Part shown: one piece after another, positions 24,972-40,057 of the stretch | Layout of the letters: each line of letters starts with the position of its first letter | How positions within the stretch are numbered: the first letter of the stretch is position 1 | Position numbers and translations under genes: made by a program | The notes under the pieces: generated by a model | What the model saw: the letters and a program-made list of their open reading frames with translations, nothing else | What the model was told of the DNA's origin: nothing | The model's database searches: none | Source of the DNA: an uncultured Clostridia bacterium | GTDB lineage: Bacteria; Bacillota; Clostridia; Christensenellales; UBA1242 | Direction of reading: 5' to 3' | Assembly (NCBI GenBank): GCA_937896905.1 | Contig: CALBOE010000006.1 | Span: 382,232 to 446,231, forward strand | DNA: 64,000 nucleotides

Positions 24972-24979
24972 AACAACTC

Positions 24980-25882: not shown

Positions 25883-25892
25883 ATAAACTCCT

Positions 25893-26214: not shown

Positions 26215-26218
26215 AATG

Positions 26219-26452: not shown

Positions 26453-26542
26453 AAGACCTCCTAAAAGTGTTTGTGTTGTACCGTACTTTCAATTCTTTTG
26501 CAAGTGTTTTTTAGTTAAAATTTCACTGTGCGTAGAAAAAGA

Positions 26543-26764
26543 ACATACACTACATACACTTCCTACACTAAAAAGCACACAATTACCTATAAATAAGGCT
26601 AAAACTCAACAAAATGAAACATTATACCAACATACACCTAACATACACTAATATACACTCAACATACACTAAAAAATTAGCAAAAACATGGAAAACAACA
26701 AAGTATCCCAACGCATTTATACACTTATACATAATTACATCAAAAGTGTATGTAGTGTAGGGTG
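26543..26764. repeat. Array of ACATACAC(T)-type 8-9 bp repeats in a divergent intergenic region
   Basis: Direct copies at 26543, 26552, 26562 (CCTACACT), 26630, 26641, 26651 (ATATACAC) and 26662. Inverted copies in AAGTGTATGTAGTGTAGG at about 26744-26761. Confidence 0.8.
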
Positions 26765-26851
26765 TTTTCTTACGCAAATTATAAAAGTTTATAAAAATGC
26801 AATACAAATCGAATAAATTATGCTATAATTATACCATTAGGAGATTATACA

Positions 26852-27616
26852 ATGGAAAAAGCAGGTGTAATTTATATTTTAACCAATCCATCATTCCCAG
26901 AATATGTGAAAATTGGTTACGCAGATGATGTTAATAAAAGATTGGCTCAATTAAACAGAAGTGAGTGCATTCCTTTTGCGTTTAGAGTTTATGCAACTTA
27001 TGAGGTGAGTTCTAGGTTATCAGATTTGAAAATACATGAGATCATTGACAAACTAAATCCAAACTTAAGATCAATCGATAATTTTGAGGGTAAAAAAAGA
27101 GTAAGAGAGTTTTATGCAATGACTAAAGAAGATGCCTACTTTATCTTAGAAGCAATTGCTGAGATTCATGGATGTACAGATAAACTAAAAAGAATTCAAC
27201 CAACAAAAGATGAACAAGTTGATGAAGAAATTGCTGAAAGAATTGAAACCGAAACTGGAATACGTAGAGGTAATGATCCTATAACTAAAGAAGAATATTT
27301 ATCAGCAAAGAAGGTTGATATGGTAAATCTATATAAAAAGATAGAGCAACGATTACAAGAAGAATTGCCAGAATATGAAGAATATATTTTACCTCAATAT
27401 ATTGGTTTAAAGAAAAATGGGAAATATTTTGCAGAATTTCATTTGCAACAAAATAAAATTCAAATAATGACTTTATTGCCAGATGGAAAGTATTCATTAG
27501 GAAACAAAGTTCCAGATAACTTTTTGTGGACTTTAAAATATAGAATTTACATGTCTAATGAAAAAGAAATAGAAGAATTGATAAGTATAATAAAAGAATC
27601 TTACAATAAAAGATAA
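26852..27616 (+). CDS. T5orf172 (GIY-YIG-like) domain protein
   Basis: 'GVIYILTNPSFPEYVKIGYADDVNKRLAQLN'. TGCTATAAT extended -10 and AGGAG RBS upstream. Confidence 0.78.
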   Translation: MEKAGVIYILTNPSFPEYVKIGYADDVNKRLAQLNRSECIPFAFRVYATYEVSSRLSDLKIHEIIDKLNPNLRSIDNFEGKKRVREFYAMTKEDAYFILEAIAEIHGCTDKLKRIQPTKDEQVDEEIAERIETETGIRRGNDPITKEEYLSAKKVDMVNLYKKIEQRLQEELPEYEEYILPQYIGLKKNGKYFAEFHLQQNKIQIMTLLPDGKYSLGNKVPDNFLWTLKYRIYMSNEKEIEELISIIKESYNKR

Positions 27617-27623
27617 TAATTTA

Positions 27624-27654
27624 AAAAGCAGTAAATCTAATTACTGTTTTTTTT
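27624..27654 (+). terminator. Rho-independent terminator
   Basis: CAGTAA (27629-27634) pairs with TTACTG (27641-27646), followed by T8. Confidence 0.65.
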
Positions 27655-27697
27655 ATTTATTAAAATCACTTGTTTTTTTATTTTTTATATGTTAAAC

Positions 27698-27727
27698 TTA
27701 GACTAAATTTAAACTATATTTAGACTA
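27698..27727 (+). promoter_or_regulatory. Two direct TTAGACTAA repeats 21 bp apart (candidate operator of the R-M operon)
   Basis: TTAGACTAA at 27698-27706 and 27719-27727, directly upstream of the RBS/ATG of the AbrB-like gene. Confidence 0.5.
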
Positions 27728-27738
27728 ATGGAGTTGAA

Positions 27739-27927
27739 ATGATAATTAAAAAAAATGTGATATATCAGAAGGATAGGAGAATACGATTGCCAGAACAAAT
27801 TGAAAACAATTTGGGTTGGATAGGGGGAACAACAAACTTAGATATTATAATAGATAAAAATAAAATCATAATACAAAAATCAAAAGAAATAAAACCAAAC
27901 AATTATGGTAAAAAGGAGAAAATATAA
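27739..27927 (+). CDS. AbrB/SpoVT/MazE-fold small DNA-binding protein (putative controller of the R-M operon)
   Basis: 'DRRIRLPEQIENNLGWIGGTTNLDIIIDKNKIIIQK' fits the looped-hinge-helix pattern. TAATG overlap with the next gene. Confidence 0.6.
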   Translation: MIIKKNVIYQKDRRIRLPEQIENNLGWIGGTTNLDIIIDKNKIIIQKSKEIKPNNYGKKEKI

Positions 27928-30371
27928 TGGCAGTAGAAGAACATGTTAAAGGATTAATGACAAATAAAATTATTAATACTGAAGGATATCCGTCGATGCA
28001 AGACAAATTGTCAAAAGAAGGAGTCGTTTGGTATAAAGAAGAAAGTTATCAAAAAATAAATCCTAAAATTGAGGCTATGTTAAGCACGGCATCAAAATCC
28101 TTAAAAGGCAATAAACCAGGAACTCCTGATTTCATGATAGAAACCCCTTCTTTTTATATAGTTATTGAAGCTAAGGGAATAGAAAAAGGAAATAAACATA
28201 AACATAGTAGATTTGCCGATGTAACTAAATATATTAAAAGGTCTGCAACAAGAGATGATGAGGTATATGATACTGCTTCAATTACAAATAGAGAATGTGC
28301 AATTGATGAGGCTCTTTATTATGCAACATTTTTAAATTTTGAAAAAGATGTGATTGCTATAGCAGTGTCAGGTACTGAGAAAGATTCAGATTTTAGATTT
28401 ACTTCTTTCTTGTTGCCTAAAGGGCAAAATTTGTCTCAAATTTCACTTATAGAGGACGGTGGGTTAAGCGGCACATTTAATACTGTCGAAAATTATAAAA
28501 GAGAAATTTACAAGGCATATGGTTATGAAGAAAGGTTGTATAGAGCGATTTACGAAGATTTGAGAAAATACGCAGATGCTTCAGCTAAATTTTTGAATAC
28601 TAACGGAGTTGATGAAAATGACAGATTAGGTTTAGTGTCTGCAATAGTTTTGGCTTTGACAAATAAAAAATCTGATTTATTTAAAAAGGTTTATAGTAAT
28701 TCAAAGTTGGATATTTCACCAGAGGAAATAAAAAACGCTTTACTATCAGAAAATCAGCCGTTAGGAGTTGTGATTGAAGATAAACTTCCTGCAGAAAAAA
28801 GAAATACTCTAAAAGCCTATTTCAATGCACTGCTAGATAAACCGTTTTTGACAAGGAAAATAAAAAGTAAAGATGGAAAAGAAGTTAATACAAAGAATTT
28901 TTTTGAAATAAATAAAGGTTTTACGGATAGTATATTATCCAGATTAACATATTCTCTCTATGAATTTATTGTCAAGGTTTACGACCAATATCAAAACAGT
29001 AATATTGATGTTATGGGGTCTTTTTATTCTTTGTTTTTGCAATATGCAAAAGCGGACGTTAAGAAAGGAGTGGTATTAACACCAAAACATATTACAGAAC
29101 TGTTTTGTGATTTGGCTGAGTATTATCTTGGTAAAAAATTAAATCATAAAACACAAATTTTAGATATATGTACAGGATCTGGAGGGTTTTTAATTTCAGC
29201 ATTAAATAGAATTGATTTTAATATCGATAATGATAAATCTTTAAATTTATCTCAAAAAAAGGATGCAAAAAACGAGGCCAGAAAAAACTGCTTATTGGGA
29301 ATTGAATTAAAAGATTCTATGTTTGTTCTCGCCTATGCCAATATGAGGTTTCACAAAGATGGCAAATCATCATTATATCACGGTTCTTCGTTGTATAATG
29401 ATGCTGAAAAACTTGCGGACGGTTTAACTTTTCATGAAATCATTTCAAAAAATTATAAAGGAGAAGAGTTGTTAGATGATGACCAAAAAGTTCAGTTATG
29501 TGGCCCAGAAATAGGGATGATGAATCCTCCCTATGAAGAAGATGTTTTTGAATTTATAGATTCAATGCTTAAATATTTACGCAAAGGCGGAATTGGAATA
29601 GCAATAGTACCAATTAATACTCAAGGTGTAAATAGCGAATTAACAGACAAAAAGAATAATCTTTTAAAAAATAATACATTATTGGCTAGTATATTAATGC
29701 CACCAGATTTATTTAATGGAGTTAGAGGGTCTGGAGCTGCAACATCTACATGCATATTAGTTTTTAAGGCTCATAGTCCACACGAAGATTTCCTTGATAA
29801 TGGTGGATTAACATATTTAGCCGATTGGTCTGCTGATGGATTTAAATTAATTCCAAAACACGGAAGATTTGAAATAGATGATAAGTGGCACAATAAAAAT
29901 GATGGATATAAAAAACTATATATTGAAAATCTTAAAAGACAAATGGCTGAGCAGGATTATATTCTATCATCAGACTATAAGAAAGACATTCATAAAGAAG
30001 GATCTATAAAATCTATAAGAAAGCCTATTCATAAATTCGATCATATTGAAACACTGATAAAAAAAGACTCAAAAGGAAATATTATTTATAAGAAAAACAA
30101 GGTTGAAAGATTGGATAAAGATGGGAAAGAGATGTATAATAAAAAAGGAGTTAAGCTATATAATATAGAAACGGCTTTAGATGCTAATGGAGATCCTATA
30201 CCAGAAGTTGAAGAAAAAGAAATATATATCAATGAGGATTGGAATATTCTTGATTATATAAAAACTGATTATAATGAATTAAAACCTGAAAATTTTATTA
30301 AAAATATGCTAGACTATAATTTGTATATTTATATGAAAGAAAATGATTTGTTGGTCGACAAGGAGGATTAA
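27927..30371 (+). CDS. Fused restriction endonuclease / N6-adenine DNA methyltransferase (BcgI-A-like, Type IIB/IIG)
   Basis: N-terminal PD-(D/E)xK 'TPDFMIETPSFYIVIEAKG'. MTase motif I 'ILDICTGSGGFLISAL'. Motif IV 'GMMNPPYEED'. Lys-rich C-terminal extension. Confidence 0.8.
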   Translation: MAVEEHVKGLMTNKIINTEGYPSMQDKLSKEGVVWYKEESYQKINPKIEAMLSTASKSLKGNKPGTPDFMIETPSFYIVIEAKGIEKGNKHKHSRFADVTKYIKRSATRDDEVYDTASITNRECAIDEALYYATFLNFEKDVIAIAVSGTEKDSDFRFTSFLLPKGQNLSQISLIEDGGLSGTFNTVENYKREIYKAYGYEERLYRAIYEDLRKYADASAKFLNTNGVDENDRLGLVSAIVLALTNKKSDLFKKVYSNSKLDISPEEIKNALLSENQPLGVVIEDKLPAEKRNTLKAYFNALLDKPFLTRKIKSKDGKEVNTKNFFEINKGFTDSILSRLTYSLYEFIVKVYDQYQNSNIDVMGSFYSLFLQYAKADVKKGVVLTPKHITELFCDLAEYYLGKKLNHKTQILDICTGSGGFLISALNRIDFNIDNDKSLNLSQKKDAKNEARKNCLLGIELKDSMFVLAYANMRFHKDGKSSLYHGSSLYNDAEKLADGLTFHEIISKNYKGEELLDDDQKVQLCGPEIGMMNPPYEEDVFEFIDSMLKYLRKGGIGIAIVPINTQGVNSELTDKKNNLLKNNTLLASILMPPDLFNGVRGSGAATSTCILVFKAHSPHEDFLDNGGLTYLADWSADGFKLIPKHGRFEIDDKWHNKNDGYKKLYIENLKRQMAEQDYILSSDYKKDIHKEGSIKSIRKPIHKFDHIETLIKKDSKGNIIYKKNKVERLDKDGKEMYNKKGVKLYNIETALDANGDPIPEVEEKEIYINEDWNILDYIKTDYNELKPENFIKNMLDYNLYIYMKENDLLVDKED

Positions 30372-30373
30372 TA

Positions 30374-31525
30374 ATGAATTTAGAGACAAACAAATGGAAA
30401 AGGTTTTATATTAGAAATTTATTTGAATGCATGCAGTCTAAGGGGGATAATCAGGCGAAAGATTTAGAAGAAGGACAAATTCCTTTAGTTTCTGCAGGTA
30501 GTTTAAATAATGGAATTGTAAAATACATAGAAGAAGGTGATGGTGTAGCGGAGATTTTTGAAGCTGGTTGTATTACTGCGGATATGTTTGGCAAGTGTTT
30601 TTATCAGCCTTTTGATTTTTATGCGGTTTCACATGGAAGAATTAACATTTTAAGACCAAAACATAAAGAAATTAATGAAAGAGTATCTTTATTTTTAATC
30701 AATGTTATGGAACATGAATTTAGATTAAAATATTCTTATAATAGAATGTTGTCTCTTGAAAAATTGTTAAAAGAATCAATATGTTTGCCTTGTGGGTGTA
30801 ATGGTAATCCAGATTGGAATTATATGGAAAAATATATTGATTACTTATATAATACTTCTGTTAATAATCAAATAGAAAGAATTATTAAAATTTCAAATAA
30901 TGATAGAAATACAATTCAAAACATTTCCGGCAAAATAAATGCTGAAGATTTTAATTCTTGGGCTAATATAAAAGAACAAGATCCTGTTGATCTAAATACA
31001 GTGAATTGGAAAACTTTTAAAATAGGAAAATTGTTTACTACTTATACTGGTGGAGATTTAATACTTGGAAATGTTGAAGAAGGAGATATCCCTGTTGTTA
31101 CACATTCAGCTAAGAACAATAGTATTTCCGTATACACAAATGAAATTTCTGGAAGAAAACTTTTTGATCATAGAAACACTATAAGTTTAGCTGATAGGGG
31201 AACATTTTTTGCGACAATACAGCCAGAGGATTTTTATATAGGAACTAGGGTTAAAGCACTTGAATCTAAAAACAGTGATATAACAAAAAAAGCATTGATG
31301 TTTATTGCTTCAATAATTAATCTTGAAAGCTTTAGATTTAACTATGGAAGAAATTGCACGGGAGGTTTAGATAATCTAACAATTAAGTTACCTGCCCAAA
31401 TGAGTGGGGCTAAATATATTTTAGATAAAGATTGTAAATATTCATCAAAGGGATTTATTCCTGATTGGAGATTTATGAATTTATATATAGATGCATTACC
31501 ATATAGTTTAAAAATTATTAATTAA
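30374..31525 (+). CDS. R-M specificity subunit (HsdS / BcgI-B-like, two target-recognition domains)
   Basis: Two TRD halves each opening with 'W+(K/T)F.I..LF' ('NKWKRFYIRNLFE' and 'VNWKTFKIGKLFT'). Separated from the upstream gene by a 2-nt gap. Confidence 0.85.
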   Translation: MNLETNKWKRFYIRNLFECMQSKGDNQAKDLEEGQIPLVSAGSLNNGIVKYIEEGDGVAEIFEAGCITADMFGKCFYQPFDFYAVSHGRINILRPKHKEINERVSLFLINVMEHEFRLKYSYNRMLSLEKLLKESICLPCGCNGNPDWNYMEKYIDYLYNTSVNNQIERIIKISNNDRNTIQNISGKINAEDFNSWANIKEQDPVDLNTVNWKTFKIGKLFTTYTGGDLILGNVEEGDIPVVTHSAKNNSISVYTNEISGRKLFDHRNTISLADRGTFFATIQPEDFYIGTRVKALESKNSDITKKALMFIASIINLESFRFNYGRNCTGGLDNLTIKLPAQMSGAKYILDKDCKYSSKGFIPDWRFMNLYIDALPYSLKIIN

Positions 31526-31534
31526 ACCATTGTT

Positions 31535-31561
31535 AGAACGGATTAATTATCCGTTCTTTTT
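31535..31561 (+). terminator. Rho-independent terminator (copy 1 of a repeated hairpin)
   Basis: AGAACGGA (31535-31542) pairs with TCCGTTCT (31550-31557), followed by a T-run. Confidence 0.8.
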
Positions 31562-31629
31562 ATTAGTTTTAAGAAAACTTATTTACTTGTACGAATTTTA
31601 TGTTATAATATAGAAAACATGGAGATAAT

Positions 31630-32571
31630 ATGGCTTTTATAGATACATATAAACGAATAATGAAAGAAGGTTATGAAAAAATAGTTTATTCATACGATAA
31701 GACAGTTGGAAGATATGAATATAGACCTTTTTCACATGCCAATACTGTCACTTGGAAAGAAGACATTGTTGAGGTACTTATAAATAATCTTCTTAATTAT
31801 TGCTATGAGCCCAATGAAATAGGAGCAATATATAATCCAAATTTTCCAGAATTAAGAAAGTATATAAATAAAGCAATTAAAGACAGATTAAACAGAAAAA
31901 CTAAACAAGCTCAACAAGATGGGTTATGTGGTGAATTGTTAATAGATTTAATATTAAGGATGGAAAATGAGAACAATGAAATCTTGATATGCAGACCCAA
32001 ATATCAACAATTAGGTGCGATAGCTGAATTAAAAAATTATGATGTTTTAATGTTTAGAGCAGAGTTTAATAATAATATTACACTGATTTTAGGACAAGTG
32101 AAATCGGGAGGGTTTGATTATTGCACAAAAAATATGAAAGTAGACTTAGATACTAAATATAATGAAACATATTTTGGTAATGCGGTGTGTTATATTGCGG
32201 ATCGTCGAATTTCAGATGTTCCTAATAAAATTTTACTCAATATTATATCAGATTTAAATAGTATTGCGTTAGGAACAGATGATACTAATATACGAAATAC
32301 TAAAATTTGTGAGTATATAAAAAAGAATGACATCAAGATTGAAATACCGTGTCTTTTGCTGTATGGCAAAGAGTCTGTTTATTCTGATATAAATAAATTA
32401 AAAGAAAATTTGGACGAAGAAGTAGAATGTGTAAAACAATTTTTCGATGAACTATCTTTTAATATTTATGATTTTAATTTTTCAATTATTTTTTATGTAT
32501 TTCCTTCTAAAAGTATAACAGAATTAAGAAAAAGCATTATGGAGTATAAAGTTGAGGTGTTGAATGGATAA
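31630..32571 (+). CDS. HamA-like putative nuclease (Hachiman-type effector candidate)
   Basis: 'GELLIDL', 'NYDVLMF' and 'LGQVKSG' are arranged like an E...D...(E/Q)xK nuclease core. 8-nt overlap with the downstream helicase. GGAG RBS and extended -10 TGTTATAAT upstream. Confidence 0.55.
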   Translation: MAFIDTYKRIMKEGYEKIVYSYDKTVGRYEYRPFSHANTVTWKEDIVEVLINNLLNYCYEPNEIGAIYNPNFPELRKYINKAIKDRLNRKTKQAQQDGLCGELLIDLILRMENENNEILICRPKYQQLGAIAELKNYDVLMFRAEFNNNITLILGQVKSGGFDYCTKNMKVDLDTKYNETYFGNAVCYIADRRISDVPNKILLNIISDLNSIALGTDDTNIRNTKICEYIKKNDIKIEIPCLLLYGKESVYSDINKLKENLDEEVECVKQFFDELSFNIYDFNFSIIFYVFPSKSITELRKSIMEYKVEVLNG

Positions 32572-34981
32572 ATATATTGTACGAAACTTTATAGAATCAC
32601 TGAACAATTTTGATGGATCTGACGAAGGAAGGGAAATATTAAAAAATCATGTATGTTATATTTCAGAGCATAAAAACGAGATTGAAAAGACTTACCCAAT
32701 TGATGAATTGTTACATATTGCATCGCAAAAGCTTAAAGTTTTTGGTTATGATGAAATGAATAAAATTACTGCCATTGAGTTGTCAGATACATCTAGCATT
32801 GTTGATAACGCTGTTAAGAAATATCACGAATCTACAATGTCTTCAGAGAAAGAAAATGTTATATTAGATGGGCTGCAAAAGAACATTATAGACGAATATC
32901 AAAAACTTCAAAATAGAAGAATTATGGTGTCAGCCCCTACATCATTTGGCAAATCATATTTGTTGCAAGAGATACTTTATAACAATGCTCAAGAATATGA
33001 AAATGTTATGCTTATATTGCCAACAATTGCTTTATTAAATGAAAATGTTAATAAATATCAATCATTAATAAAAAAAGGAAAACTGGATTATAACATAGTG
33101 TCAACCAACTACGAAGACTTAAACATTAATTCTAGAAATCTATTTATATTTACTCCAGAAAGAGCTTTGAAATTTTTAGGCAAATATGATGTAAAAATTA
33201 ACTTTTTCTTCTTTGATGAGGTTTATAAAATCGAAGAGAGATTAGATATAACAAAAGATGTTAAATCTGGAGATGATGTTATAAGTGGAAATGATAAAAG
33301 AGCTGCGGCATTTAGAACATGTTTGTACTTGCTTGCCAAATCAGTAAAAGATTATTATATTGCTGGACCGTTTTTGGATTTGGAGAATAAAAAATGTGTT
33401 GGTTTGAGGAAGTTTTTAACTAATAATTTTGTTCAAATATTTCAAGTCAAGTTTGATCCTACACTAAGAATTACATATGATGCTTGGAAACTTGGTGATA
33501 TAACGGAAAATAATTTCGTTATTCCTGAAGTTAGATCATATAAAACACGATTAGATCAGCAAAACCAAATTGGAAAGTTGGAACGAATTAAAAAATTTAT
33601 TGATGAACACGATCTTGGTAAAACAATAGTATATATAAATTACCCATCGAAAATTGTTGAAATATTAAAGGTGGCTAAAATTTTTGATAACCAGCCATTA
33701 AAAAATAAAGAGCTTGAAGAATTTATAATTCATTTGAAATCTAAATATAACGTAAATATGAACGGGATTTCTAGCGTAGAATATTGGACCTTAATCAAAT
33801 GCTTAGAATTCGGTATTGGTATACATCATGGTAAGATGCCAAAGTATATACAAAACGAAATTTTAAGACAATTTAATAGACCAGATGGTTTGAATTATTT
33901 GTTTTGCACTTCAACAATTATAGAAGGTGTAAACACTGTAGCTAAGAATGTTGTAATGTTGTCAAATAGTCATGGATCTGGCGATATGAAAAAATTTGCT
34001 TTTAAGAATATTAAAGGTCGTGCTGGACGATATTACTCTAGTTTTATAGGTAATTTATTTTATTGTGATGCGGATCAGAAGAAACTTGATGATTCAGAAT
34101 ATATGCATCTTGAATTTTTAAATTATGGAGAGACTCCATTATTGCCAATTGATTTAGACAATACTGAAAAAGAAGATTTATCAAAGAATAACCATTATGA
34201 AAAAATGAAAAGAGAAAATAAATATAATAAAGATTTATTACCTGATGAGGTTTTCTATCAAAACAGATTATTTGATAGGTTAGAGCAAGAACAAATATTG
34301 AAAAAAATACTAAGTGAAGATAATTTTGACAGGCTATATGAGTTAACTCAAAAAGTAATAAGTCGTGGATTAAGTTTTTTAGCGTTGGTGAGAGAGGTTT
34401 TAAATTTAGAAGAAAATCTTCTTTTAGGTGATTCATTTATAACTCAGTCGGAGGATAGACAAAAAGAGATATTGAAAAAATATAAAACCAAACTTTATTA
34501 TATTTTGAAAGAATATGAGCAAGAAGGCTTTTCTGGATTATTAAAATATCAAATGCGACTGTCTAAATATTCAGATGAACTAAAGCAAGATATGGACAAT
34601 AAATACAATATTGTATTTGAACAAATAAGAACAACCATAGAATACGACATTCCTAAATATCTCAGCTTATATCAATCATTATTTAATCATGCTTGTAAGA
34701 TTAAAGACAAGGTTTTCGGGAATGGCGATCTTGATGATGTTATAAAATATTATGAAATTGGAGCATCTAATGACTTTGGTAGATTGTTAATAGAAAGAGG
34801 GTTTCCTAGCGAATCGGCTAAGATGATTGAATTTGAACTAAGAAAGACTCATATTGATTTTTTAAATAATGATAAGGTAATTCAGTATATAGATCAAACT
34901 CCAAATATAATTGCACATCTTGACGGATACGAAAAGAGATTGTATACAAGAATAATAGATTTATATAGAAAAGAAAAATAA
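32564..34981 (+). CDS. SF2 helicase (HamB-like)
   Basis: Motif I 'SAPTSFGKS', Ia 'LILPTIAL', II 'FFDEVY', V 'TSTIIEGVN', VI 'IKGRAGR'. Long helical C-terminal region. Confidence 0.75.
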   Translation: MDKYIVRNFIESLNNFDGSDEGREILKNHVCYISEHKNEIEKTYPIDELLHIASQKLKVFGYDEMNKITAIELSDTSSIVDNAVKKYHESTMSSEKENVILDGLQKNIIDEYQKLQNRRIMVSAPTSFGKSYLLQEILYNNAQEYENVMLILPTIALLNENVNKYQSLIKKGKLDYNIVSTNYEDLNINSRNLFIFTPERALKFLGKYDVKINFFFFDEVYKIEERLDITKDVKSGDDVISGNDKRAAAFRTCLYLLAKSVKDYYIAGPFLDLENKKCVGLRKFLTNNFVQIFQVKFDPTLRITYDAWKLGDITENNFVIPEVRSYKTRLDQQNQIGKLERIKKFIDEHDLGKTIVYINYPSKIVEILKVAKIFDNQPLKNKELEEFIIHLKSKYNVNMNGISSVEYWTLIKCLEFGIGIHHGKMPKYIQNEILRQFNRPDGLNYLFCTSTIIEGVNTVAKNVVMLSNSHGSGDMKKFAFKNIKGRAGRYYSSFIGNLFYCDADQKKLDDSEYMHLEFLNYGETPLLPIDLDNTEKEDLSKNNHYEKMKRENKYNKDLLPDEVFYQNRLFDRLEQEQILKKILSEDNFDRLYELTQKVISRGLSFLALVREVLNLEENLLLGDSFITQSEDRQKEILKKYKTKLYYILKEYEQEGFSGLLKYQMRLSKYSDELKQDMDNKYNIVFEQIRTTIEYDIPKYLSLYQSLFNHACKIKDKVFGNGDLDDVIKYYEIGASNDFGRLLIERGFPSESAKMIEFELRKTHIDFLNNDKVIQYIDQTPNIIAHLDGYEKRLYTRIIDLYRKEK

Positions 34982-34984
34982 CAT

Positions 34985-35013
34985 AGAACGGACTAACCAT
35001 CCGTTCTTTTTTT
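34985..35013 (+). terminator. Rho-independent terminator (copy 2 of the repeated hairpin)
   Basis: AGAACGGA (34985-34992) pairs with TCCGTTCT (35000-35007), followed by T7. Near-identical to 31535-31561. Confidence 0.8.
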
Positions 35014-35270
35014 AATGCTGTTTTTTACGAAATTTGGATAAAAAACGAGTTTTGCAACAAAAGTCGATACAATCGTGAGAAACTTTGCAACACTTTTGAA
35101 ACAAAATGGATAACCAAACTCGTATAATATATGTAGGCATACAATTAAAAATTTAGAAAAGCATTTTACAAATTTAAAAATAGAGACAATCTGAGAAAAT
35201 AAGAGACACTCTGATAAGAAATGAGACAACCAAACCTATATAATGATTGTAAGGAATCAAATTGCCGAAG

Positions 35271-35298
35271 AGAGAAGTTAAAAACACTTCTCTTTTTT
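35271..35298 (+). terminator. Orphan rho-independent terminator in non-coding DNA
   Basis: AGAGAAGT (35271-35278) pairs with ACTTCTCT (35286-35293), followed by T6. No ORF lies between it and the previous terminator. Confidence 0.7.
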
Positions 35299-35310
35299 AC
35301 TGAAAAAATA

Positions 35311-35626
35311 GTTTCGAATGGACAAATGCTGTCCGAACGGAATTTATAAAATATTAAAAAATATTTCCTGCTGTAAAAAATGTGTTTACAACGGGGTTAT
35401 TAAAATTTATTTGCAACTTGTTCAAATGGTGAACACATTGGCCTTGTACAATGTTTTCCGATACGACAAATGTTGTCGGAACGGGATTGTTTAAATTGTG
35501 AAAAAATATTCCCGCTATATCAAATGGTGATACAGCGGGCTTGGTAAAATAACAGAAAATTTTATAAAAAAGTTGTAAAAATATGTCCCGTGTGGTCAAA
35601 TGGTGAACACACGGGATTGATAGAAT
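35311..35626 (+). repeat. Six hairpins with a conserved CA-AATGN-TG apex, within ~100-bp degenerate direct repeats
   Basis: Hairpins at 35320-34 (GGACA AATGC TGTCC), 35367-95, 35420-34 (GTTCA AATGG TGAAC), 35464-78 (CGACA AATGT TGTCG), 35511-39 and 35587-615. Confidence 0.85.
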
Positions 35627-35743
35627 GTGGTTACCAATAACAATATTGGTTTTATCGATGGACTGCAGCCGTCGTTAAAATATAGCTAAAGTTAAGAACT
35701 GATCAATCTTAATGTAGGCACAAAATCTAAAAAAGGAGAAAGG

Positions 35744-36403
35744 ATGAGAAATTATATATTTGAATTTGATCAACAAATTGCCTTAAGGTTAGGGCTTAAA
35801 CTTAATGAACTTTTATTTCTAGATTACTTGGCGAAATTTATTAACAGTGGGAGTATGAGATGTAAGTGTATAGAAGGTAAAAGATATTATAGATTAACCT
35901 ACAAAAAGGTAATGGAAGATTTGCCAATTTTGAAAATAAAAGAAAGGCAACTTCGCAACATTATTATTTCGTTAGAAAATAAAGGAATATTACAAAGGTA
36001 TTCTGAGTTGAAAAATGAAATGCATATTTATGTGGATTATGATGTGCTTTTCGGCAACAAATTGCCAGATAAGTTTAACTTGTCGGAAGTTGGCTTCCAC
36101 GATGAAGGAAATGGACTGCTTACAATAGATTATTATGATATTAAAAAAATAAAAATATTAAATAATAGCGCACGCGTGAAAGAAATTGATAAGCAAGAGT
36201 TGTTCAATCATTTATTAGCAAACTTAAAATTGGCGTACGGGGATGTTCTATATAAAGGATTTATTGAAAATAAACTTGATATAGATGAAATAACTGATAC
36301 TTATATTTTGTTTGATATAGGAAATGTCAAAATAGTTGGACAAACTTATGGTGATAAATTTAAGAAAGCATTTGATGACACGATTGAACACTTATTAAAT
36401 TAA
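35744..36403 (+). CDS. Putative replication initiator / winged-helix protein (RepA_N- or DnaD-like N-terminus)
   Basis: 'LNELLFLDYLAKFIN...GKRYYRLTYKKVMEDLPILKIKERQLRNIIISLENKGILQR' follows the RepA_N-type wHTH pattern. AAGGAGAAAGG RBS. Confidence 0.5.
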   Translation: MRNYIFEFDQQIALRLGLKLNELLFLDYLAKFINSGSMRCKCIEGKRYYRLTYKKVMEDLPILKIKERQLRNIIISLENKGILQRYSELKNEMHIYVDYDVLFGNKLPDKFNLSEVGFHDEGNGLLTIDYYDIKKIKILNNSARVKEIDKQELFNHLLANLKLAYGDVLYKGFIENKLDIDEITDTYILFDIGNVKIVGQTYGDKFKKAFDDTIEHLLN

Positions 36404-36897
36404 CAAACCCCCAGGGGCGGTCAAATCTCTAGGCGAAAGGTTTTAAAGAGCGGGCAGGCAGTCGCACGCAAACTTTCGCAAAATCAAAAATCAAAAACGA
36501 AACAAATGAAAGGTTGATAATTGATTATAAATAAATGAAAAATCGATAGTTTTGATTTTTATAATAAATCAAAAAATAATCAAAATTATTCAAAAGATGT
36601 TGCTCGTCGGCAATTTTATGTTTTGTAAAGCCGTTATTTATGCGTTTTGAAAAACTTTATCAATTTTGGATAGATTGCCGATGAGAATATGTTTCGTGGC
36701 TTTAATAAAGCGTTTTGAAAGGAATTTGGCTAATCATAACAATATTTCAAGAATACAAAGTTTAAAAGATACAAAATTACAAAGTTACAAGATTACAAGA
36801 AAACAATTTAGAAAAATTTAAAATTAACACTGGACTTTAAAGGCAACATGCGGTTTAATGTGTGTTGCCTAAGGTTTAGTGATATCAAGGAGAAAGA
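36404..36897. repeat. Repeat-dense non-coding region (candidate origin / recombination-directionality control region)
   Basis: Relatively GC-rich stem GCGAAAG (36441-47) / CTTTCGC (36473-79). At least 7 (A/T)TCAAAA words in both orientations across 36484-36596. Inverted CTCGTCGGCAAT / ATTGCCGATGAG. Roughly 40-bp imperfect direct repeat ending GCGTTTTGAAA, two copies. TTACAA(A)G(A) 8-bp tandem at 36776-36800. Hairpin GGCAACA/TGTTGCC around 36841-36869. Confidence 0.7.
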
Positions 36898-37155
36898 ATG
36901 AGATATAACGAAGAACTAAACCAAAAGCAATTAGCAGATTTAGTCTCAATAGAAACCAAAAGATTGTGTGAAAAATACAATAAAGATTTTCTGGATTGTG
37001 AGGACTTAATCAAAATAACAAACTTGGGGAGAGATAATGTTCGTGCAATGATGCATAGAAGAGATTTCCCATTGTTAAAAATCGGTAGAAGAAATGTTGT
37101 AAATATCAGTAGTTTTGCTTACTGGTGTATTAAACAAACATATAAGGAGATGTAA
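36898..37155 (+). CDS. xis: Excisionase-family / MerR-like HTH DNA-binding protein
   Basis: 'DLIKITNLGRDNVRAMMHRRDFPLLKIGRRNVVNISSF'. Immediately upstream of the integrase (2-nt gap). GGAG RBS. Confidence 0.7.
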   Translation: MRYNEELNQKQLADLVSIETKRLCEKYNKDFLDCEDLIKITNLGRDNVRAMMHRRDFPLLKIGRRNVVNISSFAYWCIKQTYKEM

Positions 37156-37157
37156 AA

Positions 37158-38360
37158 ATGGCAAAAAGGAAAGCAACACGCCGTGGAAACGGAGAGGGTT
37201 CAATATGGCAAAGACCAGATGGTAGATGGCTTGGACAAATATCACTTGGTTACGATGAAGAAGGAAAACTTAAAAGAAAGACATTTTATGGAAAAACAAG
37301 AAGTGAAGTTTCGCTTAAAATGACATCCGAATTGAGTTATATAATGAAAAACGGATATCAAACAGTGTGTAAAGAAAAATTTGAAACAATATTTATGGAG
37401 TGGTTGTTGGTGTTTAAAAGGAACACAGTTCAAGCAAGAACATTTGAAAGAATACTAAGCAATGCAAAAACACATGTTATACCAGAACTTGGTAAATATG
37501 GTTTAGATGAAATCAATATGCAAGCCATACAAAAAATGATAAACAGATTATACCTAAAAGAGTTGTCTCTAGATGTGATTAAGAAATCAAAGCAAATAGT
37601 TGGACAGTTCTTTGAATATGCAATAGATAACGAAATGGCAATTAAAAATCCAACAGCAAAAATAAAAATTCAAAAAAGAGAGAAGCATATTGAAGATGCA
37701 CAAAGATACAAGGCAATTCCACCAGATAAAAGAGATGAGTTTATAAAAGCATTAGATAGTCAAACAATTCTCAAACCAATGTGCTTGGTTATGATGTGCT
37801 GTGGGCTAAGAATTGGAGAAACATTAGCACTAACTTGGAGAGATGTGGATATTGAAAGAAAGTTAATACATATAAACAGAGCGATAACAGTAGATGTTAA
37901 GATGGATAAATTAGGAAATGTGCTATCAAGAAAAACAGTTATAGGCGACACTAAAACAGCGTGTTCGGTAAGAATTGTGCCTGTGCCAGATAGTTTAATT
38001 CCTGTCCTTGAAGCTTGGAAAGAAGATAGATGGATTGAGGGCAAGAAACACAATGTTGACTTGCTTGCACCAGATAGCCTTGTGTTTGGCAAATATGATG
38101 GTGGAATTAGAACTTATAGAAACACACAAAACATATTCGATAGGTTCTGCAAACAAAATGGATTTGATAAACTAGGATTACACATACACGGACTTAGACA
38201 AACATATTCAAATATGCTATTCGAAAAAAGTGTAAATCCAAAAGTTATTCAAGGCCTACTTGGCCACAAAGACGTAAAGACAACAATAATGAACTACAAC
38301 TCAGTGGATAAATCATACTTCGATAGAATTTCAAACTTAATAAACGAACAATTTAAATAA
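37158..38360 (+). CDS. int: Tyrosine recombinase / phage-type integrase with N-terminal arm-binding domain
   Basis: 'GNGEGSIWQRPDGRWLGQISLGYDEEGKLKRKTFYGKT' arm-type domain. Catalytic 'GLRIGETLALTWRDVD', 'HGLRQTYSNMLF', 'LLGHKDVKTTIMNY'. Confidence 0.93.
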   Translation: MAKRKATRRGNGEGSIWQRPDGRWLGQISLGYDEEGKLKRKTFYGKTRSEVSLKMTSELSYIMKNGYQTVCKEKFETIFMEWLLVFKRNTVQARTFERILSNAKTHVIPELGKYGLDEINMQAIQKMINRLYLKELSLDVIKKSKQIVGQFFEYAIDNEMAIKNPTAKIKIQKREKHIEDAQRYKAIPPDKRDEFIKALDSQTILKPMCLVMMCCGLRIGETLALTWRDVDIERKLIHINRAITVDVKMDKLGNVLSRKTVIGDTKTACSVRIVPVPDSLIPVLEAWKEDRWIEGKKHNVDLLAPDSLVFGKYDGGIRTYRNTQNIFDRFCKQNGFDKLGLHIHGLRQTYSNMLFEKSVNPKVIQGLLGHKDVKTTIMNYNSVDKSYFDRISNLINEQFK

Positions 38361-38364
38361 AAAT

Positions 38365-38402
38365 AAAAAAGATTGGTTGAAATATACCAATCTTCTTTTT
38401 TA
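38365..38402 (+). terminator. Rho-independent terminator after int
   Basis: AAGATTGGT (38369-38377) pairs with ACCAATCTT (38386-38394), followed by a T-run. An extended -10 TGCTATAAT follows. Confidence 0.7.
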
Positions 38403-38435
38403 TATGCTATAATAGAAACGTACAAAGGAGTAATA

Positions 38436-39470
38436 ATGTCTATTGAATTACTTTTAGATAAGAAGATAACAAAAAACAAATTTAAAACATCAGAAAGAAA
38501 AATTATAAATATTAACAAAATAAAAGGTAATGAAAATTATGTGCTTTGCATTAATACCGAAATTTCAAATAATGAAGATGCGAAATTTTATTTATCAAAG
38601 TTAGATGAAATAGTTAAAATTGTTGAATTAAATGGAGCTAATTATACTATTGTAACAAATGAACCAAGTTGTTTTTTGCTAAAGAATCTATATCCATTAT
38701 GTCAATCATTTGAAAGTAAGTTAAGAAAGTTTTTACAAATAGCTCTATGCGATACTCAAGATATTCTAACTGAAGCATATGATGAATTAAAGAAAGAGGT
38801 AATAAAAAAAATCCCTGAAGGTAAAATCAATAGAGATAATTCAATTTTGGAATATTCTGATTTGTCAAATATTTTCACTTTCCTTTTTTCAGATAAAGAA
38901 GCTGTAGAAACTATTAAAAGTGATATTTTAAAAAGAAATAATAATTGGAAAATTCATCAGGATTTAAAGAATATAAAGGATAATACAATTTGGAATAAAT
39001 GTTTTAAAAACAAATGTAAGTTTTTTAATTTTGATAAATATTATGTTGAATTATATAACTATAGAAATGATGTTATGCATTTTCATAATATATCATATAA
39101 GGAGTATATTTCTGCAAAAAAGATATTTGAAAATGCTATCAGAGAATTAGAGCTTGAATTAAAATCAAACATTGTATTAAAGGCAACGGAAATTTTAGAC
39201 AATAAACTGTTTGCGACCTACGCGATAGATAAATTAATAAATGAATTAGTCCATAATTATAGACATCATAATGAAATTCTTTTACCTTTGCTTAAAACTA
39301 TCAGTAATTCTAATTACTTTATAAATAATAATCTTAGAAATATTCCAATTTCTTTTAAATCAAATTTAGCTAATACTATCAATTTATTGTGTGATTTAAA
39401 ATTTATACGACATAATGCTATATTGCCAGATAATCAAGCAGTTTGTCACGACGACAAAGATAGAGAGTAA
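38436..39470 (+). CDS. HEPN-motif protein (Abi/Swt1-like, putative abortive-infection RNase)
   Basis: Start moved to the ATG at 38436 (AAAGGAG RBS). 'YNYRNDVMHFH' contains the Rx4H HEPN signature in a helical context. Confidence 0.5.
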   Translation: MSIELLLDKKITKNKFKTSERKIININKIKGNENYVLCINTEISNNEDAKFYLSKLDEIVKIVELNGANYTIVTNEPSCFLLKNLYPLCQSFESKLRKFLQIALCDTQDILTEAYDELKKEVIKKIPEGKINRDNSILEYSDLSNIFTFLFSDKEAVETIKSDILKRNNNWKIHQDLKNIKDNTIWNKCFKNKCKFFNFDKYYVELYNYRNDVMHFHNISYKEYISAKKIFENAIRELELELKSNIVLKATEILDNKLFATYAIDKLINELVHNYRHHNEILLPLLKTISNSNYFINNNLRNIPISFKSNLANTINLLCDLKFIRHNAILPDNQAVCHDDKDRE

Positions 39471-39566
39471 TTTATTAACTGTGTTTATAAAAGTAATGCA
39501 AATGTATGCAGTGCGGGCATATTTAGACCGTAATTAGAACAATTTAGAACGAAAGTAAGAAAAATT

Positions 39567-39604
39567 AGAGTCAACAGTTTTTGACGACTGTTGGCTCTTT
39601 TTTT
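39567..39604 (+). terminator. Rho-independent terminator
   Basis: AGAGTCAACAGT (39567-78) pairs with ACTGTTGGCTCT (39587-98), followed by T7. Confidence 0.75.
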
Positions 39605-39662
39605 GTGCCATAAAATAAAAAAATGGCAGGGTTTAAAATTTTCAAATAAAATTACAGACATT

Positions 39663-39691
39663 AAAAAATCCCCTATATTATAGGGGTTTTT
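39663..39691. terminator. Bidirectional terminator directly 3' of the island tRNA-Thr
   Basis: CCCCTATA/TATAGGGG palindrome (39670-39686) flanked by A6 and T5. Confidence 0.75.
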
Positions 39692-39693
39692 CG

Positions 39694-39769
39694 TGGAGCT
39701 TATGACGGGATTCGAACCCGTGACCTCAGCCTTACCAAGGCTGTGCGCTACCTGCTGCGCCACATAAGC
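39694..39769 (-). tRNA. tRNA-Thr (anticodon GGU), complete, CCA encoded
   Basis: Hand-folded cloverleaf: GCTTATG-TG-GCGC-AGCAGGTA-GCGC-A-CAGCC-TTGGTAA-GGCTG-AGGTC-ACGGG-TTCGAAT-CCCGT-CATAAGC-T-CCA. All stems are Watson-Crick. Confidence 0.93.
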
Positions 39770-40008
39770 ATATTGAAATTTTGATTGTTGGGATTTCTGC
39801 CAGGTAGACATTACCAAGGTGACGCTCTACCGACTGAGCCATATCAGCGTATTAAGATTTTTAATTGTTGGAATTTTAGCCAGGTAGACATTACCAAGGT
39901 GACGCTCTACCGACTGAGCCATATCAGCGTATTAAGATTTTTAATTGTTGGAATTTTAGCCAGGTAGACATTACCAAGGTGACGCTCTACCGACTGAGCC
40001 ATATCAGC
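39770..40008 (-). repeat. Three 80-bp tandem units, each the first 38 nt of a tRNA-Thr(GGU) plus a ~42-nt spacer
   Basis: 5' halves at 39811-39848, 39891-39928 and 39971-40008 are identical (minus strand GCTGATATGGCTCAGTCGGTAGAGCGTCACCTTGGTAA). Each is followed by TGTCTACCTGGC..., not by a tRNA 3' half. The spacer next to the full tRNA (39770-39810) is a diverged copy. Confidence 0.92.
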
Positions 40009-40028: not shown

Positions 40029-40057
40029 ATTGTAGCAGATTTATGAGGGTTAGTCAA
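40029..40057 (-). promoter_or_regulatory. Sigma-70 promoter of the (now split) host tRNA-Thr gene
   Basis: Minus strand reads TTGACT (40057-40052), 17-nt spacer, TACAAT (40034-40029), about 20 nt upstream of the first 5' half. Confidence 0.65.

What the first reader, a model, noticed from the sequence alone, without database searches (positions are those of the whole stretch)
39694..39769. The island brings its own complete, divergent tRNA-Thr(GGU) and parks it behind the disrupted host gene's promoter
The only intact tRNA-Thr here (GCTTATG...CATAAGC) differs from the split host gene in the acceptor, D and anticodon stems, so it is not a reconstituted hybrid. Most tRNA-targeting elements restore the gene by carrying only the 3' portion in attP.

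This element instead appears to leave the host gene broken: the 5' halves are followed by TGTCTACC.... It complements the loss with a whole gene 41 nt inside its end.

No separate promoter is obvious in the 41-42-nt spacers. Transcription would therefore come from the host promoter at 40029-40057, pass through the three half-tRNA units, and end at the hairpin at 39663-39691.

The island tRNA retains CCTTGGTAAGG, so it is itself a fresh attB.
Basis: partly seen in the sequence, partly recalled or inferred. Interest (0 to 1): 0.6.

Follow-up and report, generated by a model that had tools for sequence, protein, structure and literature searches.

The report
Defence island replaces the tRNA it splits
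A 15.5-kb mobile defence island cut a chromosomal threonine tRNA gene in two without repairing it, and instead supplies its own whole copy directly behind the host gene's promoter. This strategy is known from some phages, but here it runs through a large family of non-phage elements in gut bacteria, which leave stacks of orphaned tRNA 5' halves.

Summary
The window has one intact tRNA, tRNA-Thr(GGU) at 39694-39769 on the minus strand. It is not a hybrid.

Upstream lie three identical 38-nt 5' halves of a different tRNA-Thr(GGU). Each ends at the last base of the anticodon loop and is followed by a 41-42-nt spacer. The matching 3' half lies 15.5 kb away at 24297-24343. Joined in silico, the two halves form a perfect tRNA.

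Between them is a low-GC defence island carrying a tyrosine integrase, Hachiman, a restriction-modification methylase with specificity subunit, SoFic and PDC-S57.

The same island, spacer and tRNA sit at a single stranded half in other metagenomes, where island DNA is 90-95% identical but host flanks only 69-73%.

Integrases 43-65% identical show the same design with tRNA-Thr(GGU) or tRNA-Ile(GAU). Of 50 loci with such a tRNA, 36 have one to three stranded 5' halves.

Each spacer type travels with the tRNA that follows it, so the stacks record serial integration into the previous element's tRNA.

The principle is known as tRNA-dependent lysogeny (Guerrero-Bustamante and Hatfull 2024). New here are a non-phage family, an att-adjacent tRNA with no detectable promoter, and the stacks. 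Expression from the host promoter is inferred, not shown.

The parts
40029..40057 (-). Promoter-like site of the disrupted host tRNA-Thr gene (TTGACT-17 nt-TACAAT, TG before the second hexamer). A 20-nt leader follows (40009-40028).
   Evidence: 10 of 12 consensus matches, and the only such site on the minus strand upstream of the array. Function is inferred.
39971..40008 (-). Stranded 5' half no. 1 of tRNA-Thr(GGU), promoter-proximal, and the best candidate for the original host half. It ends at the last base of the anticodon loop (core CCTTGGTAA at 39971-39979).
   Evidence: Joined to 24297-24334 it gives a perfect tRNA-Thr.
39929..39970 (-). Spacer type A, 42 nt (TGTCTACCTGGCTAAAATTCCAACAATTAAAAATCTTAATAC). 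Read as the right arm of a type-A element.
   Evidence: It is 39/42 identical to the spacer in L064, where it also precedes a tRNA starting GCTGATATGGCTCAGTCGGTAG.
39891..39928 (-). Stranded 5' half no. 2, identical to no. 1.
39849..39890 (-). Spacer type A, second copy, identical to the first.
39811..39848 (-). Stranded 5' half no. 3, identical to nos. 1 and 2. With its core it forms the attL of the present island.
39770..39810 (-). Spacer type B, 41 nt, the outermost part of the present island (TGTCTACCTGGCAGAAATCCCAACAATCAAAATTTCAATAT). It ends in TAT immediately before the tRNA.
   Evidence: 8 differences from type A, against 0 of 38 in the halves (Fisher p = 0.006). No promoter-like site. 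The T-A-T at -3..-1 is conserved in 20-23 of 24 distinct tRNA-Thr spacers.
39694..39769 (-). Complete island-borne tRNA-Thr(GGU), the subject of the finding.
   Evidence: It is identical in L005, L007, L009 and L012, whose host flanks are only 69-73% identical.
39663..39693 (-). Intrinsic terminator-like hairpin followed by a T run, directly after the island tRNA.
   Evidence: stem 39686-39670, 7 pairs, then ATTTTTT. It is conserved in L005.
38373..39470 (+). ORF of 365 aa of unknown function, lying in the slot between integrase and tRNA. It is an insertion relative to the otherwise 90-95% identical island in L005.
   Evidence: Only a weak PADLOC hit to a CARF/HEPN model, E = 2.7e-4.
37158..38360 (+). 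Tyrosine integrase of 400 aa, convergent with the tRNA.
   Evidence: Phage_integrase 1.1e-23, Phage_int_M, Phage_int_SAM_3. Family survey.
36898..37155 (+). Small 85-aa ORF immediately upstream of the integrase, a candidate excisionase or directionality factor. An ORF of the same size and position occurs in relatives.
   Evidence: ORFs of 85-86 aa before each integrase. No Pfam hit. The role is inferred.
24344..39810 (.). The integrated island, about 15.5 kb at about 28-30% GC. Its cargo is a GNAT acetyltransferase, SoFic/PDC-S04, PDC-S57 (T5orf172), a methylase with specificity subunit, Hachiman HamA/HamB and a weak Rep-like ORF. No phage structural genes were found.
24335..24343 (-). attR core CCTTGGTAA, the only sequence shared by the two island ends.
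24297..24334 (-). Displaced 3' half of the host tRNA-Thr(GGU), including CCA. Its acceptor strand TATCAGC pairs with GCTGATA of the stranded 5' halves, not with the island tRNA.
24350..24379 (-). Weak promoter-like site (TTGATG-18 nt-TATTAT) in the island's far arm, pointing at the core. In the excised circle it would read into the spacer and tRNA.
   Evidence: 9 of 12 matches, not above chance. A similar TTGATG-16 nt-TATTTT sits before the attP-like junction in L001. Speculative.

Best explanation
**What it is.** The gene at 39694-39769 is the island's own complete tRNA-Thr(GGU). It sits 41 nt inside the integrase-proximal end of a roughly 15.5-kb mobile defence island (24344-39810).

**How it got there.** The island's tyrosine integrase recombined a short attP core, CCTTGGTAA (two stem bases plus the 7-nt anticodon loop), with the anticodon loop of a chromosomal tRNA-Thr(GGU). 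attP carries no tRNA 3' portion, so the host gene is not rebuilt. Its 5' half stays behind its own promoter and its 3' half ends up at the far end of the island.

**How it is expressed (inferred).** The island tRNA lands head-to-tail behind the stranded half. It is most likely transcribed from the captured host promoter as part of a long precursor. RNase P would then cut at its 5' end, removing the half-tRNA(s) and spacer(s) as leader. The 3' end would be set by the island's own terminator and normal 3' trimming.

**The three stranded halves.** Because the delivered tRNA keeps the same anticodon loop, it is the next attB. Each later element of the family splits the previous element's tRNA and adds one rung of 5' half plus spacer. 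The three rungs here record at least two kinds of incoming element, spacer type A and then spacer type B. The two identical type-A rungs came from a repeat visit, from carry-over on an excised element, or from an unequal crossover. The older elements have since been lost.

**Shown versus inferred.**
- Shown: the anatomy, the island boundaries, horizontal spread of island plus tRNA, and the family-wide recurrence of the design with stacks of stranded halves.
- Inferred: the exact crossover position, transcription from the host promoter, processing, and complementation of an otherwise missing tRNA.
For: - **Anatomy.** One intact tRNA with self-consistent stems. Three identical 5' halves each end exactly at the loop and are followed by non-tRNA sequence. 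The matching 3' half lies 15.5 kb away, and the joined halves form a perfect tRNA identical to intact genes elsewhere.
- **Island content.** Integrase, small ORF and defence cargo lie between the two halves, in a GC trough.
- **Same island elsewhere.** Loci L005-L009, from several JGI metagenomes, have host promoter, one stranded half, a 41-nt spacer, the identical tRNA, terminator and integrase, next to AspRS. Island DNA is 90-95% identical and host flanks are 69-73% identical.
- **Family trait, isoleucine branch.** An identical 445-aa integrase (52% identical to the window's) on a MobL mobilizable element carries one invariant tRNA-Ile(GAU). It sits behind different host 5' halves in different chromosomal contexts. 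L014 has a stranded half of the element's own tRNA type.
- **Family trait, survey.** Of 73 loci with enough DNA, 50 have a convergent Thr(GGU) or Ile(GAU) tRNA. Of those, 36 have 1-3 stranded halves lying 40-73 nt upstream.
- **Linkage test.** A spacer type goes with the following tRNA (mean identity 0.98) rather than the preceding half (0.88); 25 pairs agree and 6 disagree.
- **Expression signals.** There is one promoter-like site upstream of the array, none in the spacers, and no terminator before the one after the tRNA. The 363-nt putative precursor still folds the island tRNA as a cloverleaf. T-A-T at -3..-1 is conserved in front of the element tRNAs.
- **Experimental precedent.** The same logic has been demonstrated in phages (PMC10865867).
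Against: - There are no RNA data. A weak or non-canonical promoter inside the spacer or the tRNA cannot be excluded.
- In L001 a family tRNA sits behind an attP-like junction with no host tRNA promoter nearby, so at least some elements must be able to express the tRNA without one.
- The rest of this genome is not available. It is unknown whether another tRNA-Thr(GGU) exists, and so whether the island copy is needed.
- No empty site was found in the same species. Close relatives either lack a tRNA there (L108) or have an intact tRNA of another type (L112-L116).
- The two outer rungs are 100% identical over 80 nt. A simple local duplication explains them as well as two integrations do.
- Some family members (L045, L068, L081, L082, L113) show no stranded half and probably restore the tRNA in the classical way.
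Confidence: 0.8

Rival explanations
1. Classical tRNA-targeting island. The intact tRNA is the usual host-5'/element-3' hybrid restored at attL, and the upstream half-tRNA repeats are unrelated debris.
For: The layout of tRNA, convergent integrase and a 3' tRNA fragment at the far end is the canonical signature (PMC4383910). Some relatives of this integrase show no stranded half.
Against: The far-end fragment (acceptor strand TATCAGC) pairs with the stranded halves (GCTGATA), not with the intact tRNA (GCTTATG/CATAAGC). The two island ends share only 9 bp. The intact tRNA stays identical while the host flanks diverge to 69-73% identity. In the isoleucine branch one tRNA sits behind three different host halves.
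Confidence: 0.03
2. The island tRNA has its own promoter and does not depend on the host promoter. The promoter would be in the spacer, overlap the core, or lie in the far arm in circles and tandem arrays. Placement behind the host promoter would then be incidental.
For: In the phage precedent the tRNA lies away from attP and has a proven promoter of its own. In L001 a family tRNA follows an attP-like junction with no host tRNA promoter. Weak TTGATG-N16-18-TATTAT/TATTTT sites sit in the far arms of the window island and of L001.
Against: No promoter-like site occurs in any of the three spacers. The spacers are only 40-73 nt and differ greatly between elements, apart from A-runs and the final TAT, which abuts the mature 5' end too closely to act as a -10 box. 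The head-to-tail position just behind a host tRNA promoter is seen in 36 loci.
Confidence: 0.15
3. The three rungs come from local tandem duplication (unequal crossover or slippage) of a single attL unit, not from serial integration.
For: Rungs 1 and 2 are 100% identical over 80 nt, and all three halves are identical. Chimeric tRNAs such as L064 show that homologous exchange between such units does occur.
Against: The third spacer differs at 8 positions while the halves differ at 0 of 38 (p = 0.006). Type-A spacers are found elsewhere linked to a GCTGATATGG-type tRNA (L064). In relatives the rungs of one stack have different sequences that match other elements' tRNAs. At least two integration events are therefore needed; a duplication could account for at most one rung.
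Confidence: 0.3
4. The island tRNA is mainly a counter-defence or competition device, for example an allele resistant to anticodon nucleases, rather than a replacement for the lost gene.
For: The island is full of defence genes. The tRNA differs from the host allele at 15 positions, including the anticodon stem. The phage paper raises this possibility.
Against: The anticodon loop is identical to the host's. The tRNA always has the same isotype and anticodon as the gene that was split, in both the Thr and Ile branches, which points to replacement. No anticodon nuclease was identified here.
Confidence: 0.07

Closest known systems
tRNA-dependent lysogeny of actinobacteriophages (Fionnbharth, the Cluster L phages, Gaia, BrutonGaster and others; Guerrero-Bustamante and Hatfull, mBio 2024, PMC10865867)
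   Same: A tyrosine integrase uses an attB in a host tRNA gene. The common core is only 8-17 bp, so no tRNA is rebuilt. [quoted passage not shown] Close integrase relatives that restore the tRNA classically exist in the same family. The authors also speculate that the element's tRNA can serve as an attB for a second integration.
   Different: - The element here is not a phage. It is a defence island, and its relatives include MobL mobilizable elements.
- The hosts are gut Firmicutes.
- The integrase has no phage relative above 32% identity.
- The tRNA lies 40-73 nt from the attP core, in the same orientation, with no detectable promoter, so it falls behind the host promoter. In Fionnbharth the tRNA is distal, overlaps a gene on the opposite strand and has its own proven promoter.
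- Stacks of stranded 5' halves documenting serial integration are not described there.
- Essentiality is shown there and not testable here.
Prophage Lj965 of Lactobacillus johnsonii (as cited in PMC10865867 and PMC3714127)
   Same: It is an integrated element in a Firmicute that fails to rebuild the tRNA and encodes tRNA genes that could complement it.
   Different: It is a prophage with four tRNA genes. I could not read the primary paper, so the distance of the tRNA from attP, and any stranded halves, are unknown to me.
Classical genomic islands in tRNA genes, anticodon-centred attP class (Williams 2002; Islander, PMC4383910)
   Same: A tyrosine integrase lies next to the tRNA gene. The crossover is centred on the anticodon loop. 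The displaced 3' fragment marks the far end. Tandem occupancy of one tDNA occurs.
   Different: There, attP holds a tRNA fragment that restores the gene. Here it holds only 9 bp of the target plus a separate whole gene. Successive arrivals there stack 3' fragments, each with its own island. Here they stack 5' halves 80-100 nt apart.

Membership tests
tRNA-dependent lysogeny / disrupt-and-replace integration (PMC10865867) | A tyrosine integrase mediates recombination with an attB overlapping a host tRNA gene | tested here: met
   The host tRNA-Thr halves lie at the two island ends.
tRNA-dependent lysogeny / disrupt-and-replace integration (PMC10865867) | [quoted passage not shown] | tested here: met
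   The two ends share only CCTTGGTAA, 9 bp. ARAGORN and Rfam find no tRNA at the junctions.
tRNA-dependent lysogeny / disrupt-and-replace integration (PMC10865867) | [quoted passage not shown] | tested here: met
   Both are tRNA-Thr(ggt). The same holds in the Ile(gat) branch.
tRNA-dependent lysogeny / disrupt-and-replace integration (PMC10865867) | The element tRNA is required for viability of integrants (host tRNA essential and single-copy) | not testable with these tools
   Only 64 kb of the genome is available, and exact look-ups of the source contig failed. This needs genetics.
tRNA-dependent lysogeny / disrupt-and-replace integration (PMC10865867) | The element is a temperate phage | tested here: not met
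   No capsid, terminase, tail or lysis genes were found among the island ORFs of at least 80 aa; the cargo is defence genes. The integrase has no phage relative above 32% identity. It works like the phage system but is not a phage.
Classical tDNA-integrating genomic island (Islander definition, PMC4383910) | [quoted passage not shown] | tested here: not met
   The sequence after the core at attL is TGTCTACC..., not the tRNA 3' portion. The intact gene is a separate, divergent allele.
Classical tDNA-integrating genomic island (Islander definition, PMC4383910) | The integrase gene lies next to the intact tDNA, and a displaced tDNA fragment in the same orientation marks the other end | tested here: met
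   The integrase is at 37158-38360, the tRNA at 39694-39769 and the 3' fragment at 24297-24343, with tRNA and fragment on the same strand.
Classical tDNA-integrating genomic island (Islander definition, PMC4383910) | Anticodon-centred crossover site | tested here: met
   The stranded halves end exactly at the last loop base in the window and in 36 related loci. The exact cleavage positions are not testable.

The most novel reading that the evidence does not exclude
tRNA-Thr(GGU) and tRNA-Ile(GAU) loci of gut Firmicutes may act as relay sites where competing non-phage islands take over an essential gene one after another.

- Each newcomer destroys the resident element's tRNA, which is the host's only working copy.
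- It inherits the host promoter and becomes the new indispensable provider. The older island is then free to be deleted.
- The stack of 5' halves would be a time-ordered record of invasions.
- The working tRNA allele of these bacteria would in effect be a horizontally moving gene.
- The same family would hold both restoring and replacing members. One spacer (L057) still shows a decayed 3' half, which would allow the evolutionary route between the two modes to be traced.
Probability: 0.35. Interest if true: 0.72.

Novelty: new variant of a known kind. Interest (0 to 1): 0.55.

Why it matters
- **Scope.** The finding extends a mechanism shown only in actinobacteriophages to a large family of non-phage defence islands and mobilizable elements in uncultured gut Clostridia and Bacilli.
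- **Economy of design.** It reveals a more compact version of the mechanism: the replacement tRNA sits right next to attP with no detectable promoter of its own and takes over the host promoter.
- **History of invasions.** The stacked 5' halves give a readable history of island turnover at one site, and direct evidence that the delivered tRNA becomes the next target.
- **Detection tools.** Island-finding tools that expect a restored tRNA plus a long direct repeat would map these islands wrongly or miss them.
- **tRNA annotation.** tRNA gene annotations in such genomes may be reporting mobile alleles.
- **Defence-island persistence.** If the host depends on the island's tRNA, that dependence would help explain why such defence islands are kept.

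Tried and rejected
- **Exact-sequence look-ups** of the window's AspRS, AsnRS and integrase, and of their 100%-identical database twins P0001 and P0139, found nothing. I could not retrieve the source genome, count its tRNA-Thr genes or name the species. The nearest named AspRS relatives are Christensenellales and Clostridia MAGs.
- **Search for an empty site.**
  - The metagenome scan for the intact host-type tRNA gave 9 contigs. Two had exactly this tRNA, but in unrelated contexts.
  - An AspRS relative at 85% identity has no tRNA at the locus (L108).
  - Relatives at 82% have an intact tRNA of a different type, with various islands behind it and no stranded halves.
- **Spacer as a decayed tRNA 3' half.** This is clear only for L057 (24/29 identity, 0 of 500 shuffles). 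It is not significant for the window spacer (p = 0.44) or for most others, so I dropped it for this locus and kept it as a lead.
- **Hairpin between GGTAGA in the D region and TCTACC at the start of the spacer.** It is absent from relatives with other spacers, so I treat it as chance.
- **Promoter in the far arm.** It matches 9 of 12 consensus positions, which is not above chance, so it remains speculative.
- **Stranded 3' halves in the fetched relatives.** None was found. The loci do not reach the far ends of the elements.
- **Rfam.** It gives nothing for the half units.
- **Phage collection.** It holds no close integrase relative.
- **Literature.** Searches for a non-phage description of this design found none in the held library. 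Subscription-only papers could not be searched.

Full report
**1. The observation**

ARAGORN finds a single tRNA in the window, tRNA-Thr(ggt) at 39694-39769 on the minus strand. Rfam confirms it at 73 bits and finds no other tRNA.

Read on the minus strand, the region is laid out as follows:
- A promoter-like site TTGACT-17-TACAAT at 40057-40029.
- A 20-nt leader.
- Three 80-nt units. Each is a 38-nt tRNA 5' half, GCTGATATGGCTCAGTCGGTAGAGCGTCACCTTGGTAA, followed by a spacer starting TGTCTACC. The spacers are 42, 42 and 41 nt.
- The complete tRNA, GCTTATG...CATAAGC.
- A hairpin-plus-T terminator at 39693-39663.

Tandem Repeats Finder and the repeat finder report the same array.

**2. The other half, and the island**

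The core CCTTGGTAA occurs six times in the window against 0.5 expected. One copy, at 24335-24343, is followed by GGTGGAGGTCACGGGTTCGATTCCCGTTATCAGCTCCA. This is a tRNA 3' half whose acceptor strand pairs with GCTGATA, not with GCTTATG.

Joining a stranded 5' half to this 3' half gives a sequence that ARAGORN calls a perfect tRNA-Thr(ggt). It is identical over 73 nt to intact genes in two unrelated metagenome contigs. So a chromosomal tRNA-Thr(GGU) was cut in its anticodon loop, and the pieces lie 15.5 kb apart.

The interval 24344-39810 has the lowest GC content of the window. It encodes:
- a GNAT acetyltransferase;
- a Fic protein (SoFic/PDC-S04);
- a T5orf172 protein (PDC-S57);
- a methylase with a specificity subunit;
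- Hachiman HamA/HamB;
- a weakly Rep-like ORF;
- an 85-aa ORF;
- a tyrosine integrase at 37158-38360;
- an unknown 365-aa ORF.

No phage structural genes were found. The two island ends share only the 9-bp core. The intact tRNA matches the rebuilt host tRNA at 60 of 75 aligned positions, with paired changes in three stems. It is therefore a separate allele, not a hybrid.

**3. The tRNA travels with the island**

An integrase more than 90% identical (P0121) occurs in several JGI metagenomes. In L005, L006, L007 and L009 the arrangement is host promoter, one stranded GCTGATA-type half, a 41-nt spacer, the identical tRNA, terminator and integrase, again next to AspRS/AsnRS.

Island DNA is 90-95% identical to the window, while the flanking housekeeping genes are only 69-73% identical. 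This is the signature of horizontal transfer of island plus tRNA into the same target in a different host.

**4. A family trait**

A 445-aa integrase 52% identical to the window's (P0016) sits on a MobL-relaxase mobilizable element. That element is found with an identical integrase in several chromosomal contexts. It is followed by one invariant tRNA-Ile(GAU).

Sixty-one nt upstream of that tRNA lies a stranded tRNA-Ile 5' half ending at ...CCCTGATAA. Its sequence changes with the host context. In L014 there are two rungs, and the inner one is the element's own tRNA type.

A scan of species-representative genomes with an alignment of the integrase family returned 78 loci, nearly all from gut MAGs of Clostridia, Christensenellales, Lachnospiraceae and Bacilli. 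Across all fetched loci with an integrase at least 40% identical to the window's:
- 73 have enough downstream DNA to judge.
- 50 of those have a convergent tRNA-Thr(GGU) or tRNA-Ile(GAU) within 4 kb.
- 36 of those 50 have one to three stranded 5' halves, each ending at the last anticodon-loop base, 40-73 nt upstream of the full gene.

Some of these loci are the same element sampled in different metagenomes (L005-L009, L013-L020), so the counts are not all independent.

Stacks with different rungs occur in L043, L080, L032, L023, L035, L038, L055 and L057. Halves of the GCTTATG type carried by the window island appear stranded in L072 and L043.

A linkage test asked which neighbour a spacer type stays with. 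Among unit pairs with similar spacers from different loci, the following tRNA is 98% identical on average and the preceding half 88%. There are 25 pairs in the first direction and 6 in the other. Each rung is therefore the spacer plus tRNA 5' part of an element that arrived and was later split by the next arrival.

Some members show no stranded half (for example L045, L081, L082 and L113) and probably restore the tRNA classically.

**5. The three rungs in the window**

The three halves are identical. The third spacer differs from the other two at 8 positions (Fisher p = 0.006 against 0 of 38 in the halves).

A spacer 39/42 identical to type A occurs in L064 (Candidatus Onthoplasma). There too it precedes a tRNA that starts GCTGATATGGCTCAGTCGGTAG.

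At least two kinds of element have therefore visited: type A, with a host-like tRNA, and then the present type B. The second type-A rung could be a repeat visit, a rung carried along by an element that excised through an outer attL, or an unequal crossover. I cannot decide between these.

No second family integrase or 3' half remains in the window, so the older elements are gone. Integrase-mediated excision between the inner attL and attR would rebuild a correct GCTGATA...TATCAGC tRNA behind two rungs. This is an inference from the sequences.

**6. How the tRNA is probably expressed**

- The consensus scan finds one promoter-like site upstream of the array, none in any spacer, and no terminator until the hairpin after the tRNA.
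- The 363-nt putative precursor folds with the island tRNA as an independent cloverleaf.
- Family spacers are very diverse, but they keep A-runs and T-A-T at -3..-1 in 20-23 of 24 distinct tRNA-Thr spacers.
- From my own knowledge, bacterial RNase P favours U at -1, which would fit processing from a long leader.

None of this is evidence of transcription.

There is one caveat. In L001 a family tRNA follows an attP-like junction (far arm, core, spacer) between two defence islands, with no host tRNA promoter nearby. Expression without the host promoter must therefore be possible in some settings. Weak TTGATG-N16-18-TATTAT/TATTTT sites in the far arms are candidates, but they are not above chance.

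**7. Comparison with what is known**

The canonical rule is that attP holds a fragment of the tRNA gene and restores it. Islander lists 3760 islands with 3' fragments against 159 with 5' fragments.

The exception was described experimentally in 2024 as tRNA-dependent lysogeny. In it the core is 8-17 bp, no tRNA is rebuilt, and a phage tRNA of the same isotype is required for viable lysogens. Restoring and non-restoring integrases occur in one family. The authors speculate that a plasmid-borne tRNA could serve as an attB. Prophage Lj965 is cited as a possible case in Firmicutes.

The window element meets the three sequence-level criteria of that system. It is not a phage. In the phage system the tRNA lies far from attP and has its own promoter. 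Here it abuts attP with no detectable promoter.

I found no description of the non-phage family, the att-adjacent design or the stacks of halves in the searchable library. That library omits most subscription journals.

**8. Verdict**

- The kind of system is known. This is a new variant with a broad, previously unremarked distribution.
- Interest is moderate.

Noticed in passing
window 38385-39485 (ORF 38373-39470): The 365-aa ORF between integrase and tRNA is an insertion relative to the otherwise 90-95% identical island in L005. The same slot holds an Abi_C protein in L001 and SMEK_N/CTD10, MC6 and DUF2326 genes in L113, so it looks like a cargo slot for defence genes. The ORF has only a weak CARF/HEPN-type PADLOC hit (E = 2.7e-4).
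   Followed up: partly
L064 6817-6892 (Candidatus Onthoplasma MAG): The full tRNA-Thr is a chimera. Its first 22 nt are of the GCTGATATGG type, and the rest, including the 3' acceptor strand CAACAGC, is of the GCTGTTG type. This gives two acceptor-stem mismatches, apparently from homologous exchange within the D region. The stranded half upstream of it is visibly decayed.
   Followed up: partly
L101 about 10690-10837: A stranded 5' half has an anticodon loop reading TTTGTAA, which is tRNA-Thr(UGU)-like. It is followed by a 34-nt spacer and a full tRNA-Thr(GGU). This may be replacement across isoacceptors. No family integrase lies within 2.6 kb downstream.
   Followed up: no
L013 and L015, about 160-260 nt upstream of the tRNA-Ile (7626): An extra tRNA-Ile 5' piece is broken at a different point, inside the anticodon stem (..GAGCACCAC|GCCTGTTGCC..). 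It is followed by about 75 nt that include a T-arm-like GGTTCAACTCCATT. This may be the scar of a different kind of element or event.
   Followed up: no
L057, 62-nt spacer upstream of the tRNA-Ile (7327): The spacer keeps a recognisable relic of a tRNA 3' half (GGAGACAGTGGTTCGACTCCATTCATTCC, 24/29 identical to the neighbouring tRNA; 0 of 500 shuffles score as high). This hints that the replacing design evolved from a restoring attP whose 3' half decayed once a whole tRNA lay behind it.
   Followed up: partly
L001 15197-15330: An attP-like junction (far arm, CCTTGGTAA, 64-nt spacer, full tRNA-Thr) lies between two defence islands on a 248-kb contig. This suggests a second element integrated into the attL of the first rather than into its tRNA. 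L031 has the far arm motif TAGAACCC next to a core and a tRNA-Ile 3' half (an attR).
   Followed up: partly
L006 3798-3873: In one metagenome the island tRNA reads GCTTAGG instead of GCTTATG, which breaks acceptor pair 6-67. This is either a sequencing error or a damaged copy.
   Followed up: no
window 40703-40876 (+): A T-box leader (Rfam RF00230, 94.5 bits) lies upstream of the AspRS/AsnRS pair. It is ordinary. The 165-aa ORF at 40138-40635, between the tRNA array and the T-box, is absent from L005 and has no family match.
   Followed up: no
L112-L116 (AspRS relatives at 82% identity): In a sister species the tRNA-Thr(GGU) upstream of AspRS is intact and has no stranded halves. The DNA just behind it differs between samples, including an island with a family integrase 44-53% identical in L113. 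The same hotspot is therefore also used by restoring members of the family.
   Followed up: partly
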